Shown piece after piece: positions 4,627-31,673 of a stretch of DNA of 64,000 nucleotides. Position 1 is the stretch's first letter. Each line of letters begins with the position of its first letter. The stretch lies in the sequence record MK373784.1; one strand, 5' to 3'. The position numbers were made by a program, and so were the translations under genes. Source of the stretch: Escherichia phage vB_EcoM_MM02. The notes beneath the pieces are model-generated. The model did no database searches. It saw only the letters and a list, made by a program, of their open reading frames with translations, and had not been told where the DNA came from.

Positions 4627-6315
4627 TTATGAAACAGTCATTACAGTAAATCGTCCAACTTTGCTCATTTGAAGATGTTGTCCATAAGCTTGTGGGTCAT
4701 GGTCTCTGTGACTAATTATAAACACGTTTGCATCGGTTAGAGAGTTAAGAATTGTTGAAATGGCTTTAATACCTTCGGAATCAGTCGCGGAATCCATGAC
4801 TTCGTCCATAATTAATGTATTGATTCTAACACCAGAGACCTTTTCAGCAATATCTCGCCACGTAAACAACAATGCGATATCGATACGCGCTTTTTCGCCT
4901 TGACTAAATGAAGCATAACTGAACTCTTCACGGCCACGTGATTTTATAGATTCATTGAATTCTTCATCAATAGAAAACACGTAATCGGCTTCCATGATTT
5001 TAAGATAATGGTTAATCTGCTTGTTGAACAGAGGCACATATTTTTTAATGATAGCACCTTTAATACCAGAATCTTTTAACATATCTGTGATAATACCACG
5101 ATGGTATTTTTCAAGAACGATATCTGATTTTGTTTTAATGATTTTATCAAGTTCTTTTTGAAGCAAAGCTATCTCATCGGCATGGTCGATAAATTCTGCT
5201 GAGGCTTGCTCTATTGCAGCTTTAACTTTCTTAGCTTTATCAATAGTGGCAATCATTGCTTGTTTCTTGGTACGAATATCAGATGCAAGGTCCTGTTTAG
5301 TCTTAACATTAGCTCTATATTCGTCCACTAGGACACTCAGGTTATCTCTGTGACATGTAAGTTGCTCGAATGAGTGATTACATTCGTGAAGCTTATCGGT
5401 AATCTTAGAGACAATAGGGTCACCCTGGTGCAACTGTGATGCGCAAGTAGGACATGTACCGCCATCGTGATACATCTTAATAACTTTGTTGTATGAGTCG
5501 ATTTTAGATTTAATCAAGAATGCTTCTTGTCCTATCTTGTTGAATGCCTCAGTAGGGTCTTCATCAAGAACGATATTAAGTAGTCGCTCATTAGCTTCTT
5601 CGATTTCTGCTTTTAATGAACGAGCTTCTTTGGCTAGGTCGTCATACATATTCTGTAGACGCGCTACATTATCACCAGATAATTTCTTTTGACGTTCGAT
5701 ATTCTCGTTATAAATCTTAATTTGTTGGATAACACCATCTTTCTTAGCATCGAGAACTTGTCCCTGGGAATTAAGTTCTCGAACTTGAGACTTATTGATT
5801 TTATCCATTTCAGCGAGTGTGCCGACTTCTAAAAGGTCTTCGACAAGTTTTCTACGAGCAGGGGTGCTAAGAGCCATGAAAGGGGTATACCCTGCCGTCC
5901 CAAGCACAACGATCTGTTTAAAAGACGCGTATGACATTCCGATGCTACGTTCAAATTCTTCTTGGAAGTCACGACTGCTGGCAGATTCATCGAGACGAAC
6001 ACCGTCAACGGAGATTTCGAAAATATTGGGCTTTTGGCCGCGTCTAATGAAGTATTTTTTATCATCGAATTCCATCCAAAGCTCAACTAAGAGCTCTTTC
6101 TTGTTCGTGCTATTAATGATTTGTCCTTTCTTAACATCACGAAATGGTTTACCGAAAAGTCCGAAAGTAATGGCTTCTAACATCGTAGATTTACCACCGC
6201 CATTTTTACCAGTGATTAATGTCTTTTGGACTTTATCTAATTGGATATCAATAGGATTCCCACCTACCGACATGATGTTTTGATAACGAACACGATTTAA
6301 TTTAAATGATTTCAT
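4627..6315 (-). CDS. 46: Recombination endonuclease subunit gp46 (Rad50/SbcC-like ATPase)
   Basis: 562 aa; N-terminal Walker A GKNGGGKST, long coiled-coil middle, C-terminal ABC signature region. Confidence 0.9.
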   Translation of the reverse strand: MKSFKLNRVRYQNIMSVGGNPIDIQLDKVQKTLITGKNGGGKSTMLEAITFGLFGKPFRDVKKGQIINSTNKKELLVELWMEFDDKKYFIRRGQKPNIFEISVDGVRLDESASSRDFQEEFERSIGMSYASFKQIVVLGTAGYTPFMALSTPARRKLVEDLLEVGTLAEMDKINKSQVRELNSQGQVLDAKKDGVIQQIKIYNENIERQKKLSGDNVARLQNMYDDLAKEARSLKAEIEEANERLLNIVLDEDPTEAFNKIGQEAFLIKSKIDSYNKVIKMYHDGGTCPTCASQLHQGDPIVSKITDKLHECNHSFEQLTCHRDNLSVLVDEYRANVKTKQDLASDIRTKKQAMIATIDKAKKVKAAIEQASAEFIDHADEIALLQKELDKIIKTKSDIVLEKYHRGIITDMLKDSGIKGAIIKKYVPLFNKQINHYLKIMEADYVFSIDEEFNESIKSRGREEFSYASFSQGEKARIDIALLFTWRDIAEKVSGVRINTLIMDEVMDSATDSEGIKAISTILNSLTDANVFIISHRDHDPQAYGQHLQMSKVGRFTVMTVS

Positions 6316-26924: not shown

Positions 26925-27227
26925 TTAGATAGATGTAGGCTCTAATTTTATTTTCATGAACTCGGCAAATTGTCTGGCAGTTTTTATGCCTTGTTCATGA
27001 CATTCAAATGCATCATCACAGGGACTATTTTTGTAATGCTTTGCCATATACTTATAGAATTTTTCAGAATTCTCGACATTTTGAATTTCAAACAAAGTAT
27101 ATACGTTTTTAATCCCTGATTCCATAAAGTTATCAAAATATGGGTCGATATGTGCAGTACCAACGATAGGAGTTGTTGCTGCAAAAAACCCCAGCATCGC
27201 TATGACAGCTATCGCTCTTAAGGCCAT
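26925..27227 (-). CDS. rI: Lysis-inhibition regulator RI
   Basis: 100 aa; N-terminal signal-anchor; ...DPYFDNFMESGIKNVYTLFE... recognised as T4 RI; adjacent to tk as in T4. Confidence 0.8.
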   Translation of the reverse strand: MALRAIAVIAMLGFFAATTPIVGTAHIDPYFDNFMESGIKNVYTLFEIQNVENSEKFYKYMAKHYKNSPCDDAFECHEQGIKTARQFAEFMKIKLEPTSI

Positions 27228-27239
27228 ATAGGCCTCCTG

Positions 27240-27452
27240 TTAATTTTGGCCAGTATTTATTTTTCGCCTTTGGACGGCCTTAACATCTGCGAGGTATTTT
27301 TCCAGCTTGCGCTTGCGTGTATAATCAGCTTTAGAACCAGTTTGACGGATATCCTCGTTTAAATGAGAAATAGAATGTCCTAATTCTCTTCGGATTTCAT
27401 CTAATTGGGTTACAGTAAGATTACGAAGTTGTCTTTCGTTTAATTGCTGCAT
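27240..27452 (-). CDS. Hypothetical protein
   Basis: 70-aa ORF between rI and tk. Confidence 0.4.
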
Positions 27453-27479
27453 ATATACCTCTTGGTTAGATATTAGTAT

Positions 27480-28061
27480 TTATAACAACCCTGTCAAATC
27501 GTTCCAATGCTTCCGGCATAATGACACATATCTATCGGTATCACCAATTTCAATTTGACTGCCATCTGTAATTGGAAGTCCGTCTTCCGTGACTCTAGCT
27601 ACCATTGTGGCCTTTTTACCACAATGACAGACACCTTTAAGTTCAACAAGCTTATCGGCAATAGCCATTAATGCTTGAGAACCTTCAAATAGATTACCTT
27701 TAAAATCTGTTCGTAGTCCATATGCCATTACCGGCACATTGTATACGTCAACAATACGACTAAGTTGATACACCTTTTCAGTAGTTAAGAACTGAGCTTC
27801 GTCAACAAATACGCAGTGAATATCCTTTTGTGCTGCAGCCCATTTATAGAATTCAAAGATATCCATGTCTTTTGTAATTATATTGGCGTCCTGACGAATA
27901 CCAATACGAGAGACTATTTCACCTTTTGAATCGCGAGTATCAATAGCCGGTTTAAGAACTAATACACCCATGCCACGTTCTTTATAGTTATGTGCGGCAG
28001 TAAGTAATGAAGCAGACTTACCAGCGTTCATAGCGGCATAGGTAAAAATTAAACTAGCCAT
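27480..28061 (-). CDS. tk: Thymidine kinase
   Basis: 193 aa; P-loop MNAGKS; C-terminal CxxC...CRKHW zinc motif typical of type II TK. Confidence 0.9.
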   Translation of the reverse strand: MASLIFTYAAMNAGKSASLLTAAHNYKERGMGVLVLKPAIDTRDSKGEIVSRIGIRQDANIITKDMDIFEFYKWAAAQKDIHCVFVDEAQFLTTEKVYQLSRIVDVYNVPVMAYGLRTDFKGNLFEGSQALMAIADKLVELKGVCHCGKKATMVARVTEDGLPITDGSQIEIGDTDRYVSLCRKHWNDLTGLL

Positions 28062-28070
28062 AAGAGTCCC

Positions 28071-28253
28071 TTATAGTGAATTCACGTAGTCAATGAGTTC
28101 TTGTTCTTTCCTGTCAAATGATTCCATCAATGCTTGATATTCTTCGTCCGTCAAAGGAGCATATTCATCGTACGCATTGGTGGCTGCTTGCTCATCCAAT
28201 AGGTCATGGATAAGTTCGAACAGTTTAGTTTTCTCTTCTTTAGTCAATTTCAT
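28071..28253 (-). CDS. Hypothetical small acidic protein
   Basis: 60-aa ORF. Confidence 0.35.
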   Translation of the reverse strand: MKLTKEEKTKLFELIHDLLDEQAATNAYDEYAPLTDEEYQALMESFDRKEQELIDYVNSL

Positions 28254-28477
28254 TTAGGTTCACCTTCTTTAACGAAATCTGGGTAAGGGTAAAATCCTGA
28301 GTAAAACCCTTCACCTTTATGATTGCTACAACCTTTGTTCGAACAGTAACACCAATAATCAAAATCACAAGCCATTTCGTCATTGCATAAAGCAAAAACT
28401 ACAGGCCATTCGCATTTTTCGCATTTAGCACCTGTAAGAATTTTTGTTTGACTCATAGCCATGTCACCTTTAAGCAA
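28250..28477 (-). CDS. Hypothetical Cys-rich small protein
   Basis: 75 aa with about 10 cysteines (CEKCEWP...CYCSNKGC). Confidence 0.35.
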   Translation of the reverse strand: MLKGDMAMSQTKILTGAKCEKCEWPVVFALCNDEMACDFDYWCYCSNKGCSNHKGEGFYSGFYPYPDFVKEGEPK

Positions 28478-28680
28478 TATTCTTCTACATGTTGTTTACG
28501 GCCTTTCTTATCAATAAAGGTATATTCAACGAATGTTCCGATGTAGTCTTTATCTACATCATGTGGACTATTAATTGGACATTTGGTACGACAAATGCGT
28601 TCCCATTGACGAATAATTACTGCCTTATTCTTTGGGTCATATGGATGTGGATAATGTATATTCATAATAACGGTTCCCAA
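28453..28680 (-). CDS. Hypothetical protein
   Basis: 75-aa ORF. Confidence 0.35.
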   Translation of the reverse strand: MGTVIMNIHYPHPYDPKNKAVIIRQWERICRTKCPINSPHDVDKDYIGTFVEYTFIDKKGRKQHVEEYCLKVTWL

Positions 28681-29159
28681 TCAACAATCACAATTTCTAG
28701 TTTAGTAGAATACGTATCTAAAATCTCTTCGATGACATCCCAGTTTCCACCACCAATACCTGCACCAATTCTTGGCATATAAATTACAGGCTTTATTATC
28801 TTATTCTTTCCGAATTCATTTAATTCTATTATACAATTCATTAAAGCAGAGTACTCAAAATTAGGTCCCGGCTCAAACTGTGTATAAAGATTAAAGCAAT
28901 AAGCTTTATGGGTCTTAAAATATTTTTCATAAACCGAATAAGTCCCTAGTTTAGACTCGTCTCCGAATTCGGTTTGAAGTTTATCGGCTTCCAGAATTTT
29001 TGGATAAGCCTTTGCTAATTGTCCTGCCACACCCGCGCCCATTGTATGAAAACAATTACACCCATGAGCAATATTATTACCTTTAGAAAACAGGGCGACA
29101 ATATCGCCCTTGATATAGTTTTTAATCACTTGCTGCAAGTCCTCTATTATAAGAGTCAA
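28662..29159 (-). CDS. Macrodomain protein (TARG1/DarG-like ADP-ribose hydrolase fold)
   Basis: 165 aa; GDIVALF...IAHGCNCFHTMGAGVAGQ resembles the GD(I/L)F...AHC...MGAGIA signature as I recall it for TARG1-type macrodomains. Confidence 0.6.
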   Translation of the reverse strand: MTLIIEDLQQVIKNYIKGDIVALFSKGNNIAHGCNCFHTMGAGVAGQLAKAYPKILEADKLQTEFGDESKLGTYSVYEKYFKTHKAYCFNLYTQFEPGPNFEYSALMNCIIELNEFGKNKIIKPVIYMPRIGAGIGGGNWDVIEEILDTYSTKLEIVIVDWEPLL

Positions 29160-29469
29160 CTAGACGGTCCACCATAGAATTGCATGCTGCCTTATCTTTA
29201 GGTTCCGCCACCGAGCATTCTAATATTTGCCATTTTTTATAGTATCTTTTAATTAAGGTAGACGCCTTGAACCTACTAGACGCCCCATCTTTTTCTCCGT
29301 CTTTATACGCGTATAACAATTTTTGTGAAAAATCTACTTTACACTCTTGACTTTTACCACAGTAATCAGACGCCGTTCTGTTTGTATACTCCGTTACATC
29401 AGTATATGTAGTATTAGCAAAAGCGTTAAATGAAACCAAGCCAACTATTAAAGCCAACATTTTGGTCAT
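29122..29469 (-). CDS. Hypothetical secreted protein
   Basis: 115 aa; signal-peptide-like N-terminus MTKMLALIVGLVSFNAFA; four cysteines. Confidence 0.45.
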   Translation of the reverse strand: MTKMLALIVGLVSFNAFANTTYTDVTEYTNRTASDYCGKSQECKVDFSQKLLYAYKDGEKDGASSRFKASTLIKRYYKKWQILECSVAEPKDKAACNSMVDRLVDSYNRGLAASD

Positions 29470-30008
29470 TCTTTTATTTCCAGTAGTTTATTTGATTTAA
29501 GGTAATTAGCCTTTTCTAGGACTTCAGAAGCATATTTACTTCCAGCACTTGTCTTCCATCCCGCATTATATGAGGATATAGCTTTTCTTATATCCCCGTT
29601 ATGTATATTTAACCAATAAGAAAATTCGATATAAGCCCATCTGGCTGAATTAGACCGCTTAGATAGCATTTTCTTAATTTGGGCATCAGTCATATTATAA
29701 CCAAGTTGGTTAATTCTTGCCCTCATCGTTGGTAGATAATTTTGGAACATTCCATACGCATGGTGACCTTTCTTATCTTTAAGATTAATACCGGCTGATG
29801 ATTCCTGCCATAGTATTGCGGCCATTATGTATCCAAGTCCTTTCTTATGCATATTTTCATGCGTTTTAAATTTTCCATCCTTAGAAAACTGTTCCCCAAA
29901 CTGATAAGCATAATTCAAGTTATCGAGTTGGACATTACTAAAAGTATGCTCGGAGCTATGTGCTGATAATGAAAGAGCAAATAGACCAGCGAGTAGTGCT
30001 TTTCTCAT
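29466..30008 (-). CDS. Secreted lytic-transglycosylase-like (SLT domain) protein
   Basis: 180 aa; signal peptide; SLT motifs QESS, AYGMFQ, SYNAG. Confidence 0.6.
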   Translation of the reverse strand: MRKALLAGLFALSLSAHSSEHTFSNVQLDNLNYAYQFGEQFSKDGKFKTHENMHKKGLGYIMAAILWQESSAGINLKDKKGHHAYGMFQNYLPTMRARINQLGYNMTDAQIKKMLSKRSNSARWAYIEFSYWLNIHNGDIRKAISSYNAGWKTSAGSKYASEVLEKANYLKSNKLLEIKE

Positions 30009-30016
30009 GTTTACCT

Positions 30017-30475
30017 CTAGATTTTAATCACTGCTTTAGAAGCTTTTCCTGGTAGTCGTTTATTGTTAATAATAGCCATTCTGCATTGAAGAGTCTTCAT
30101 TTTGAATGCCGGATTTTCGCGACAAACTGTAAGTCCTAACCAAAGATTTCCGTCAGTTATTTCTAAACGGCCTGGACGATACTCGACACCTTCGACAAAA
30201 TCTTCATCAACATCTGGACGTGCCGGCATTGATAAAAATTCTGCAACTTCTTTAACGTGATTTTTTACTTTATGAAATAATTCAAAAACGTAATTCTCAT
30301 CTATTTCTCTCTGGATGGCACGATCTAAGAGATGTTGAGAATACTTGATATGAAAGCCTGGTAGTCCAAGAGACTTTGCAGCATCTTTTATACCGACATT
30401 TATTTTGCGGAACTCCGTTTCAAAGATTCGACGGAGTTTATTACGGCGGATAAAAACTTCCGAATTGATAGTCAT
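30017..30475 (-). CDS. regB: Endoribonuclease RegB
   Basis: MTINSEVFIRRNKLRR... recognised as T4 RegB; ATG at 30475 with GAGGAG SD. Confidence 0.85.
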   Translation of the reverse strand: MTINSEVFIRRNKLRRIFETEFRKINVGIKDAAKSLGLPGFHIKYSQHLLDRAIQREIDENYVFELFHKVKNHVKEVAEFLSMPARPDVDEDFVEGVEYRPGRLEITDGNLWLGLTVCRENPAFKMKTLQCRMAIINNKRLPGKASKAVIKI

Positions 30476-30483
30476 TTTGATTT

Positions 30484-30532
30484 CTCCTCTAGTTGACAAG
30501 TCTATAGTAACACAACTAGAGGAGAAGTAAAC
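30484..30532 (-). promoter_or_regulatory. Promoter cassette with 12-bp inverted repeat sequestering the regB SD
   Basis: GTTTAC, 17-nt spacer, TACTAT; IR arms ctcctctagttg/caactagaggag; the 3' arm is the regB Shine-Dalgarno. Confidence 0.5.
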
Positions 30533-30831
30533 TACTCTTTGAAAGGAATTAACTTTTTAACTGCTTTAGATACTTCGTCACGAACCTGATGGAAGTTCTT
30601 GAGCTGTTCAAGGCGTTGTTCGTAATACGCAATCTCATCTTCTTCAAGACAATCGTCAGCGTCTTCTTTCAGATATGCCTTGTACTCATTAAAGAGGGCC
30701 CATAGGCGGTTCTCAAAGTCATCAAGGCTTTGAATTTTCTTGTGCTTCAGAACAAGGCCAAAAGGATTGCTTTCAGTTATGCGTCTAGATGCTTCATAAT
30801 GAGTTCCAAAGCCTGATAGGATTTGAGCCAT
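30532..30831 (-). CDS. Hypothetical protein
   Basis: 99-aa ORF. Confidence 0.4.
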
Positions 30832-31265
30832 TAGTATTTTTCCTCAGGTCGAAATACTGCACGACATGCCCACATGCTGGCTTCTTTTAGATGTTGCTTA
30901 GCATACTTAAGAGCCTGCACTGCATCCATATCTTCTTTGGTTTGTTGCTCTGTTTCATTTTCTTTCAAGATATATGCTTCTTCAATCAGAGCATCAAACA
31001 ACAATCCAAGACGGACTTCTGCATCTTTAATAGCGTTCACTTTACCGATTTTATCATCGGTATGCGGCTTGTAGCCTTTGATGTCTTCAATCGACATAAG
31101 GAATTTCCTCATCTGTGGCAAGGTCATATTCGACCAATTGGATAGGCTCATTAATACCATATCCACGTACAGTGATATCAGTTGTCGGATAGTTTCCAGT
31201 AATATCACCCATTCTAAATGATTCAATGAATGATTGCTCGCCTGAGCAACTAAACCAGGCGGCAA
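30831..31265 (-). CDS. Hypothetical protein (start uncertain)
   Basis: 144-aa ORF partly overlapping 31087..31311; real start may be the internal MSIEDIKGY. Confidence 0.3.
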
Positions 31266-31311
31266 AACATTTTAAAACATCTTCAGACCCTTCTATAAAC
31301 AATTTAGCCAT
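31087..31311 (-). CDS. Hypothetical protein
   Basis: 74-aa ORF. Confidence 0.3.
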   Translation of the reverse strand: MAKLFIEGSEDVLKCFAAWFSCSGEQSFIESFRMGDITGNYPTTDITVRGYGINEPIQLVEYDLATDEEIPYVD

Positions 31312-31673
31312 TATAGACTCTCAGTAAAGGTGCGAGCGATAACGTCACGCTGCTGTTCCGGAGTTAGAGAGTTAAAGCGAACTGCATAACCGGATACACG
31401 GATGGTCAGCTGCGGATATTTTTCCGGATGCTTAACTGCATCTTCTAGAGTTTCACGACGCAGAACGTTAACGTTCAGATGTTGTCCACCTTCAATTTTA
31501 ACTTTAGGTTGATGTTCAATTTCAATTTCACGGGCATTCAAACCGTAGAAAATTTCTGGGTCTACAATAGCGTCTTCTTTAAAAGTCTTAGAGACAATAA
31601 TCCGGGCTTGAGTACCGTCTTCAAAATAAATAGTGCCTTTGTGTGTGCCTTCAAGAATTTGATATGCTTTCAT
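31311..31673 (-). CDS. GrcA/YfiD-like autonomous glycyl-radical cofactor
   Basis: 120 aa; C-terminal half ...[60 protein letters not shown] matches the glycyl-radical domain as I recall it for E. coli GrcA. Confidence 0.8.

What the first reader, a model, noticed from the sequence alone, without database searches (positions are those of the whole stretch)
28662..29159. TARG1/DarG-like macrodomain protein next to tk
The N-terminus GDIVALF...IAHGCNCFHTMGAGVAGQ resembles the signature I recall for the TARG1 branch of macrodomains, to which the DarG antitoxin macrodomain also belongs. These enzymes remove ADP-ribose from glutamate or from DNA thymidine. A phage copy could reverse host ADP-ribosylation of phage DNA, for example by DarT-type toxins, or tune the phage's own ADP-ribosyltransferase activity. 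I do not recall a macrodomain gene at this position in T4.
Basis: partly seen in the sequence, partly recalled or inferred. Interest (0 to 1): 0.65.

Follow-up and report, generated by a model that had tools for sequence, protein, structure and literature searches.

The report
Phage tk.4/AdfM macrodomain, already known

Summary

It is the ortholog of T4 Tk.4 (85% identity, same tk.3-tk.4-vs position).

A November 2025 preprint found tk.4 to be the single T4 gene needed on hosts with DarTG2. A clean knockout became sensitive, and the gene was renamed adfM. The anti-DarT idea is therefore supported by genetics in the ortholog. Enzymatic removal of ADP-ribose from thymidine is still inferred.

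One nuance seen here: the catalytic lysine of TARG1 (K84), DarG (K80) and PhiKZ AdfM (K78) is an invariant glutamine (Q84) in this family. SCO6735 has the same arrangement, and its Gln85 and Asn27 are essential for cleaving thymidine-linked ADP-ribose. The protein also lacks DarG's C-terminal domain and any DarT partner.

Verdict: real, ordinary, already known.

The parts
28662..29129 (-). tk.4 / adfM coding sequence (155 aa, GTG start, stop included): a single-domain macrodomain protein
   Evidence: ORF. It has the same extent as JK36 QEG05691 'macro domain-containing protein' in collinear coordinates. It is 85% identical to T4 Tk.4 over all 155 residues with no gaps. Pfam Macro. AF2 pLDDT 95.9.
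29130..29159 (-). Ten-codon upstream extension of the maximal ORF (TTG start), probably not translated
   Evidence: T4 and RB32 have an in-frame TAG just before their ATG and a 1-nt indel here, so the extension is not conserved. Homologs align from residue 11 of the 165-aa ORF.
29140..29144 (-). GAGGA Shine-Dalgarno sequence, 10 nt upstream of the GTG start and inside the 3' end of vs
   Evidence: Read from the sequence. Conserved as GAGGA in T4 and RB32.
29055..29057 (-). Codon for Asn25, in the H22-G-C-N25-C26 motif
   Evidence: N in 119 of 121 family members. It aligns with SCO6735 Asn27 and with the DarG N22 / PhiKZ AdfM N23 column. Those residues are needed for activity.
29031..29042 (-). 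Codons M30-G31-A32-G33, the first glycine-rich ADP-ribose-binding loop
   Evidence: G33 is invariant and M30/G31 nearly so. They align with MGAG of TARG1 and MGKG of DarG.
28878..28880 (-). Codon for Gln84, at the position of the catalytic lysine of TARG1, DarG and PhiKZ AdfM
   Evidence: Q in 121 of 121 sequences. It aligns with TARG1 K84, with DarG K80 and PhiKZ K78 in MAFFT, and with SCO6735 Gln85. In the model it directly follows strand 75-82 and is followed by an 8-residue loop before the helix at Y93, the same spacing as in TARG1.
28740..28775 (-). Codons P119-W130 (PRIGAGIGGGNW), the second glycine-rich diphosphate-binding loop
   Evidence: P119, I121, G122, G124 and W130 are invariant. 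They align with PRIGCGLDRLQW of TARG1 and PRIGCGLAGGTW of SCO6735. TARG1 Asp125 corresponds to Gly126.
29092..29110 (-). 8-bp hairpin (AGGGCGAU-AUU-GUCGCCCU) followed by a U-rich run, 18 nt into the coding sequence; significance unknown
   Evidence: Terminator-like hit. It is the centroid structure of the local fold, although the whole 91-nt stretch has a z-score of only -1.7. The DNA is identical in T4, RB32 and KMB42, and lost in Moon and F48.
29122..29469 (-). Upstream neighbour vs (valyl-tRNA synthetase modifier); its stop overlaps the tk.4 start (GTGATTAA)
   Evidence: PHROG 1256, E = 1.5e-35. Annotated in JK36, RB32 and T4.
28453..28665 (-). Downstream neighbour tk.3; its start overlaps the tk.4 stop by 4 nt
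   Evidence: PHROG 2008, E = 9.7e-42. Same position as tk.3 in T4 and RB32.

Best explanation
The gene is the Mosigvirus ortholog of T4 tk.4 (adfM, 'anti-DarT factor macrodomain'). It encodes a stand-alone 155-aa macrodomain that is probably translationally coupled to vs, in a run of same-strand genes with overlapping stops and starts.

Proposed mechanism: when a host DarTG2 system is triggered, DarT2 attaches ADP-ribose to thymidines in single-stranded phage DNA and blocks replication. The phage macrodomain binds the ADP-ribose in its glycine-rich cleft and hydrolyses the thymidine-ribose bond, which restores the DNA.

Shown here: the fold, the orthology, the synteny and the active-site residues. 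Shown by others for the T4 ortholog: the gene is needed on DarTG2 hosts. Inferred: hydrolysis itself, and the chemistry. The chemistry should be lysine-independent, with Gln84 (held by Asn25) positioning the distal ribose as in SCO6735, not the Lys-based chemistry of DarG and TARG1.
For: - Orthology. 85% identity and 95% positives to T4 Tk.4 with no gaps, and the same tk.3 | tk.4 | vs order.
- Function of the ortholog. tk.4 was the single significant transposon-screen hit on DarTG2 hosts, and a clean knockout sensitised T4.
- Active site. Asn25 and Gln84 are conserved in 119/121 and 121/121 homologs. They align with SCO6735 Asn27 and Gln85 at hhalign probability 98.3%. SCO6735 cleaves thymidine-linked ADP-ribose on ssDNA, and its Q85A, Q85E and N27S mutants lose activity (PMC9411070).
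- Precedent. A different phage macrodomain, PhiKZ AdfM, removes DarT2 marks from DNA in vitro and protects the phage (PMC13309987).
Against: - No biochemistry exists for T4 Tk.4 or for this protein. The preprint states only that enzymatic removal 'seems likely'.
- The catalytic Lys of DarG, TARG1 and PhiKZ AdfM is absent.
- The extended Lys-bearing mobile loop that SCO6735 uses for DNA is 5 residues shorter here.
- SCO6735 Q85A still inhibits DarT by binding, so a non-catalytic contribution is possible.
- This Mosigvirus copy has not been tested against any DarTG2 system.
Confidence: 0.82

Rival explanations
1. It is an ADP-ribose-1''-phosphate phosphatase like yeast Poa1p, the historical 'phosphatase / A1pp' annotation. 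It would clear a small-molecule by-product of RNA 2'-phosphate removal and would not act on DNA.
For: - T4 and many phage records call it 'phosphatase' or 'Poa1p_like', as does PHROG 335.
- It hits Poa1p by sequence at E = 1.8e-8 and shares the H-x-C-N-C motif.
Against: - The annotation comes from a domain name, not from an assay.
- The genetic phenotype of the T4 ortholog is specific to DarTG2.
- The family's invariant Gln84 and Asn25 match the residues needed for thymidine-ADP-ribose cleavage in SCO6735.
- From general knowledge, many macrodomains show weak Appr-1''-p phosphatase activity in vitro without this being their role.
Confidence: 0.07
2. It neutralises DarT2 mainly by binding the toxin or shielding its product, acting as a stoichiometric antitoxin mimic. 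Hydrolysis would be dispensable.
For: - Catalytically dead SCO6735 Q85A, DarG K80A and TARG1 K84A still inhibit DarT in vitro, SCO6735 most strongly.
- Other phage anti-DarT factors, such as ICP1 AdfB, appear to act through direct interaction.
- The canonical catalytic Lys is missing here.
Against: - The whole ADP-ribose-binding and catalytic set (HGCNC, MGAG, NxYTQ, PxIGxGxxGxW) is invariant or nearly so across 120 homologs, including stand-alone bacterial ones with no DarT nearby. This conservation argues for an enzyme.
- The protein lacks the DarT-binding C-terminal domain of DarG.
Confidence: 0.07
3. It erases or tunes ADP-ribosylation written by the phage's own transferases (Alt, ModA, ModB), or reverses other host ADP-ribosylation such as RNA marks. 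The DarTG2 effect would then be a side activity.
For: - T-even phages encode three ADP-ribosyltransferases (general knowledge).
- Macrodomains of this class can act on protein and nucleic-acid substrates; SCO6735 and TARG1 do so.
Against: - Alt and Mod enzymes modify arginine, a linkage that macrodomains are not known to cleave (general knowledge).
- No ADP-ribosyltransferase gene lies near tk.4 in the part of the window checked.
- SCO6735 is inactive on 2'-OH RNA ADP-ribosylation and, in the assays of that paper's results, on 5'-phosphate-linked marks, although its discussion says otherwise for RNA phosphate ends.
- The T4 knockout phenotype reported is conditional on DarTG2.
Confidence: 0.04

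Closest known systems
T4 Tk.4 = AdfM (NP_049723; bioRxiv 10.1101/2025.11.20.689424)
   Same: 155 aa, 85% identical with no gaps. Same position between tk.3 and vs, with the start overlapping the vs stop. Same N25 and Q84 and the same glycine loops.
   Different: 23 substitutions, for example GAGIGGGNW here against GAGIGKGNW in T4. GTG start instead of ATG. This copy has not been tested experimentally.
Streptomyces coelicolor SCO6735 (PDB 5E3B) and Bacteroides BT1257 (2AFC/2FG1): orphan Gln-type macrodomains of the ALC1/TARG1-like class
   Same: - Asn and Gln at the two positions shown to be essential in SCO6735 (N27, Q85).
- No Lys/Asp dyad.
- Stand-alone genes with no DarT partner.
- SCO6735 cleaves thymidine-ADP-ribose on ssDNA.
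   Different: - Only about 24-30% identity.
- The loop after Gln is 5 residues shorter and lacks the lysines SCO6735 uses for DNA.
- Gly23 replaces Val25.
- The H-G-C-N-C motif resembles Poa1p.
DarG antitoxin of DarTG2 (Taq 5M3E, Mtb 5M3I)
   Same: Same macrodomain class and the conserved Asn. Presumed same substrate, DarT2-made thymidine-ADP-ribose on ssDNA.
   Different: - Catalytic Lys80 is Gln here.
- No C-terminal DarT-binding domain.
- No DarT operon partner.
- NCBIfam DarG score is 33 bits against a cut-off of 250, and the PADLOC DarG score is 36 bits.
PhiKZ gp104 'AdfM' of nucleus-forming phages (PMC13309987)
   Same: A phage-encoded single macrodomain that counters DarTG2, given the same name independently.
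   Different: A different subfamily. PhiKZ AdfM is closely DarG-like: 133 bits on the PADLOC DarG model, E = 1e-24 to Mtb DarG, and it keeps Lys78. It is only about 19-20% identical to the window protein, with an ambiguous alignment around the catalytic loop.
Human TARG1/OARD1 (4J5R) and yeast Poa1p (6LFR)
   Same: Top Foldseek hits. The strand-loop-helix spacing around residue 84 is identical to TARG1. The HxCNC motif is shared with Poa1p.
   Different: TARG1's Lys84/Asp125 dyad is Gln84/Gly126 here. Poa1p is a eukaryotic small-molecule phosphatase.

Membership tests
Macrodomain (Pfam PF01661) | Profile score above the curated gathering threshold | tested here: met
   28.2 bits against a cut-off of 22, covering profile positions 2-117 of 118.
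Macrodomain (Pfam PF01661) | Three-layer alpha/beta/alpha fold with a mixed central sheet, superposable on solved macrodomains | tested here: met
Macrodomain (Pfam PF01661) | Two glycine-rich loops that hold the ADP-ribose diphosphate | tested here: met
   MGAG (30-33) and PRIGAGIGGGNW (119-130) are invariant or nearly so and align with the loops of TARG1, DarG and SCO6735. ADP-ribose binding itself was not tested.
T4 Tk.4 / AdfM orthologous group | Full-length high identity to T4 Tk.4 | tested here: met
   132/155 identical, 147/155 positive, no gaps.
T4 Tk.4 / AdfM orthologous group | Conserved position tk - ... - tk.3 - tk.4 - vs - vs.1 - regB on one strand | tested here: met
T4 Tk.4 / AdfM orthologous group | Needed for growth on DarTG2-expressing hosts | not testable with these tools
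   Shown only for T4. It needs a knockout of this phage.
TARG1 (OARD1) | Catalytic Lys84/Asp125 dyad | tested here: not met
   Gln84 and Gly126 occupy these positions (HMMER profile alignment; hhalign 98.2%). Q is found in 121/121 homologs and A or G at position 126.
DarG antitoxin (DarTG2) | Macrodomain with catalytic Asn22 and Lys80 | tested here: not met
   The Asn is present (N25) but the Lys is replaced by Gln. The loop alignment to DarG-type sequences is less certain in hhalign, but it is anchored through TARG1 and SCO6735.
DarG antitoxin (DarTG2) | C-terminal DarT-binding domain, and a score above the NCBIfam equivalog cut-off | tested here: not met
   The protein has only 155 aa. It matches profile positions 4-146 of 338 and scores 33.3 bits against a cut-off of 250.
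DarG antitoxin (DarTG2) | Encoded next to a DarT toxin gene | tested here: not met
   The neighbours are tk.3 and vs. The 80 bacterial homolog loci share no conserved neighbour family.
SCO6735/BT1257-type (Gln-type) orphan macrodomain hydrolases | Gln at the TARG1-Lys84 position, together with the Asn that positions it | tested here: met
   N25 = N27 and Q84 = Q85 in hhalign at 98.3%. The residue numbering was checked against the residues named in the paper.
SCO6735/BT1257-type (Gln-type) orphan macrodomain hydrolases | Extended mobile loop with Lys89/Lys94 for DNA binding | tested here: not met
   There is a 5-residue gap in the window protein after Q84-F-E, and the loop FEPGPNFE has no lysines.
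SCO6735/BT1257-type (Gln-type) orphan macrodomain hydrolases | Hydrolysis of thymidine-linked ADP-ribose on ssDNA | not testable with these tools
   This needs an enzyme assay.
Poa1p-like ADP-ribose-1''-phosphate phosphatases | H-x-C-N-C active-site motif and sequence similarity to Poa1p | tested here: met
   IAHGCNC aligns with LIHSCNC, E = 1.8e-8. Phosphatase activity was not tested.

The most novel reading that the evidence does not exclude
The T-even AdfM (Tk.4) family is not a captured DarG antitoxin. It would be a separately recruited, lysine-less 'Gln-type' macrodomain related to orphan bacterial enzymes such as BT1257 and SCO6735, but with a short TARG1-like loop and a Poa1p-like HGCNC motif. 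It would therefore remove thymidine-linked ADP-ribose by a water- and backbone-mediated mechanism distinct from that of DarG and PhiKZ AdfM, and it might have a wider or different substrate range. In that case two unrelated routes to anti-DarTG2 activity currently share one name.
Probability: 0.5. Interest if true: 0.35.

Novelty: already known. Interest (0 to 1): 0.15.

Why it matters
It matters little as a discovery. The gene has carried a macro/A1pp label in T4 records for years, and a 2025 preprint showed genetically that the T4 ortholog is an anti-DarTG2 factor.

The value here is practical:
- The ortholog in this Mosigvirus can be annotated as adfM with the correct GTG start.
- The catalytic position holds an invariant glutamine, not the DarG/TARG1 lysine. 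This tells anyone doing the missing biochemistry which mutants to make (N25A, Q84A, Q84K).
- The T4-type and PhiKZ-type 'AdfM' proteins should not be assumed to work the same way.

Tried and rejected
1. The 165-aa TTG-start reading. Rejected, because T4 has a stop codon and a frame shift there.
2. Plus-strand ORFs 28489..28782 and 29019..29177 as alternative genes. They match no PHROG family.
3. Filing the protein as DarG. Rejected on the NCBIfam cut-off, the missing C-terminal domain, the missing DarT neighbour and the missing Lys.
4. Filing it as TARG1. Rejected because the dyad is absent.
5. A direct profile alignment to PhiKZ AdfM. It gave an ambiguous placement of the catalytic loop, so I anchored the position through TARG1 and SCO6735 instead.
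6. A search for a conserved partner gene, such as DarT, beside 80 bacterial homologs. Only lineage-specific housekeeping neighbours and spurious GC-rich ORFs turned up. DarT was not searched for with a profile, so rare cases could have been missed.
7. Promoter and terminator scans of 27000-31500. Counts were no higher than in shuffled sequence.
8. Plasmid search. It found only distant homologs of 42% identity or less.
9. A literature search on the bare term 'AdfM'. It was swamped by unrelated hits, mostly materials-science papers (the string occurs in adfm.* journal DOIs) and computing acronyms.

Full report
**Observation.** The ten N-terminal codons are probably not part of the gene.
- T4, RB32 and the 99%-identical Mosigvirus record JK36 all annotate a 468-nt, 155-aa gene.
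- T4 has an in-frame TAG immediately before its ATG, and a 1-nt indel relative to the window upstream.
- A GAGGA Shine-Dalgarno sequence 10-11 nt upstream of the start is conserved.

The coding sequence is therefore 28662..29129. It starts at a GTG that overlaps the stop of vs (GTGATTAA) and ends 4 nt inside tk.3. The plus-strand ORFs over the same DNA match no phage family, whereas every minus-strand neighbour does.

**It is a macrodomain.**
- Pfam Macro scores 28.2 bits against a gathering score of 22, over nearly the whole profile. PHROG 335 scores E = 2e-66.
- By sequence alone it hits the solved structures BT1257, yeast Poa1p, SCO6735, Taq and Mtb DarG, and human TARG1. A 55-sequence family profile raises these to E = 1.7e-17 to 6e-11.
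- An AlphaFold2 model built on that alignment has mean pLDDT 95.9 and pTM 0.91.
- Foldseek ranks TARG1, Poa1p, Taq DarG, BT1257, Mtb DarG and SCO6735 first.

**It is tk.4, and T4 has it.** The window is collinear with Shigella phage JK36 (genus Mosigvirus), checked over window positions 1-32039, about the first half. The order is rI, rI.1, tk, tk.2, two small ORFs, tk.4, vs, vs.1, regB, all on the minus strand.
- T4 (NC_000866) has tk.4 at the same place between tk.3 and vs. It is annotated 'phosphatase; Tk.4; contains A1pp phosphatase motif'. A1pp is an older name for the macro domain.
- The window protein is 85% identical and 95% similar to T4 Tk.4, with no gaps.
- Homologs occur in 2,798 phage records. 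They span T-even relatives, rV5-like and Felix-O1-like phages, and Pseudomonas, Vibrio, Acinetobacter and Bacillus phages. Many are already labelled 'macro domain protein', 'phosphatase' or 'Poa1p_like'.

**Function, from the literature.** A November 2025 preprint (bioRxiv 10.1101/2025.11.20.689424) screened a T4 transposon library on E. coli expressing DarTG2.
- It found tk.4 as the single significant hit.
- A clean knockout sensitised T4 to DarTG2.
- The authors renamed the gene adfM. They state that enzymatic removal of ADP-ribose from DNA 'seems likely' but did not test it.

Separately, a Cell Reports 2026 paper gave the same name to PhiKZ gp104. It showed that this protein removes DarT2 marks from a T-ADP-ribosylated oligonucleotide and protects nucleus-forming phages. 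T-even phages also carry the NADAR enzyme AdfN, which acts against DarTG1 but not DarTG2.

**Active-site anatomy.** In 120 homologs plus the query, several motifs are invariant or nearly so: H22-G-C-N25-C26, M30-G-A-G33, N80-x-Y82-T-Q84 and P119-x-I-G-x-G-I-x-G-G-x-W130. Q84 is present in 121/121 sequences and N25 in 119/121.
- The family profile aligns T83-Q84 with TARG1 T83-K84, and G126 with TARG1 D125 (HMMER; hhalign probability 98.2%).
- In the model, Q84 directly follows strand 75-82 and is followed by an 8-residue loop before the helix at Y93. This is the same spacing as in TARG1.
- MAFFT places Q84 in the column of Taq DarG K80, Mtb DarG and PhiKZ AdfM K78. hhalign against PhiKZ AdfM alone was ambiguous in this loop.
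- Against SCO6735, hhalign (98.3%) pairs N25 with Asn27, G23 with Val25 and Q84 with Gln85. I checked the SCO6735 numbering against the residues named in the paper.
- SCO6735 cleaves thymidine-linked ADP-ribose on ssDNA without any lysine. Q85A, Q85E and N27S abolish activity, and Gln85 is proposed to position the distal ribose while a backbone-held water starts the reaction (PMC9411070).

The window protein therefore carries the SCO6735-type residues rather than the DarG/TARG1-type ones. Unlike SCO6735, its loop after the Gln is 5 residues shorter and has no lysines.

**Membership.** It is a macrodomain and a Tk.4/AdfM ortholog.
- It is not a DarG. It scores 33 bits on the NCBIfam DarG equivalog (cut-off 250) and matches only the N-terminal 146 of 338 profile positions. 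It scores 36 bits on the PADLOC DarG model, where PhiKZ AdfM scores 133. It has no DarT neighbour.
- It is not TARG1, because the dyad is absent.
- It shares the HxCNC motif with Poa1p, which explains the 'phosphatase' label. That label rests on a domain name, not on an assay.

**Bacterial relatives.** A scan of one genome per species found 377 confirmed homologs at 35-45% identity in many phyla. In the 80 best loci the gene is nearly always a stand-alone ORF of 140-180 aa. No neighbour family is shared by more than 17 loci, and the shared ones are lineage-specific housekeeping genes or spurious GC-rich ORFs. This fits an orphan enzyme like SCO6735 rather than a toxin-antitoxin partner. I did not search for DarT with a profile.

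**Rivals.**
- A Poa1p-like small-molecule phosphatase. This is the historical label, and it has no supporting phenotype.
- A mainly stoichiometric DarT inhibitor. This is possible as a contribution, because dead SCO6735 still inhibits DarT. The invariant catalytic set in DarT-less bacteria argues for an enzyme.
- An eraser of the phage's own Alt/Mod marks. Those are arginine-linked, and macrodomains are not known to cleave that linkage (general knowledge).

**Verdict.** The feature is real, correctly recognised as a TARG1/DarG-class macrodomain, and correctly guessed to counter DarT. It is also the well-conserved T4 gene tk.4, already annotated as a macro domain, and a preprint has already assigned its T4 ortholog the anti-DarTG2 role. 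Novelty: already known. Interest: low.

The only modestly new point is that the T-even AdfM family has an invariant Gln where DarG, TARG1 and PhiKZ AdfM have the catalytic Lys. This predicts a different chemistry and suggests an independent origin from orphan bacterial macrodomains.

Noticed in passing
window 29092..29110 (minus strand), inside tk.4, 18 nt after the GTG start: An 8-bp GC-rich hairpin (AGGGCGAU-AUU-GUCGCCCU) is followed by a U-rich run. The 26-nt stretch containing it is identical in T4, RB32 and KMB42, although the KMB42 protein is only 58% identical overall. The hairpin is lost in phages Moon and F48. It could be an RNA structure or attenuator, or a shared recombination boundary. 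The local fold z-score is only -1.7.
   Followed up: partly
window 29130..29159 compared with T4 (L003 about 5391..5436): A 1-nt indel relative to T4, together with loss of T4's in-frame TAG, opens a 10-codon upstream extension. A mechanical ORF call therefore gives 165 aa where the conserved protein has 155 aa.
   Followed up: yes
window 29122..29469 (vs) and 29466..30008 (vs.1), minus strand: Both proteins begin with what look like Sec signal peptides (MTKMLALIVGLVSFNAFA... and MRKALLAGLFALSLSAHS...). This is odd for a 'valyl-tRNA synthetase modifier'. GenBank record JK36 labels the vs.1 homolog 'endoribonuclease RegB', which looks like an annotation error, because the true regB is the next gene (30017..30475). 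The HIDEN-SEQ preprint reports vs as the T4 gene most depleted in minimal medium.
   Followed up: no
window 28250..28456, minus strand: A small Cys-rich ORF (CEKCEW...CNDEMACDFDYWCYCSNKGCSNH, PHROG 2306) lies between tk.2 and tk.3. T4's annotation has no gene at this position, but RB32 and JK36 do. It may be a zinc-binding protein of unknown function.
   Followed up: no
L004 12518..13006 (PhiKZ gp104) compared with window 28662..29129: Two phage proteins from different macrodomain subfamilies were independently named AdfM in 2025-2026: Lys-type PhiKZ gp104 and Gln-type T4 Tk.4. This name collision could mislead annotation transfer.
   Followed up: partly
L006-L085 (bacterial homolog loci): In about 10 Rhodobacterales loci the stand-alone macrodomain gene is followed 11 nt downstream by a gene for a 406-aa protein that looks like an endonuclease/exonuclease/phosphatase family member (judged by eye, not profile-tested). 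This may be a lineage-specific operon.
   Followed up: no
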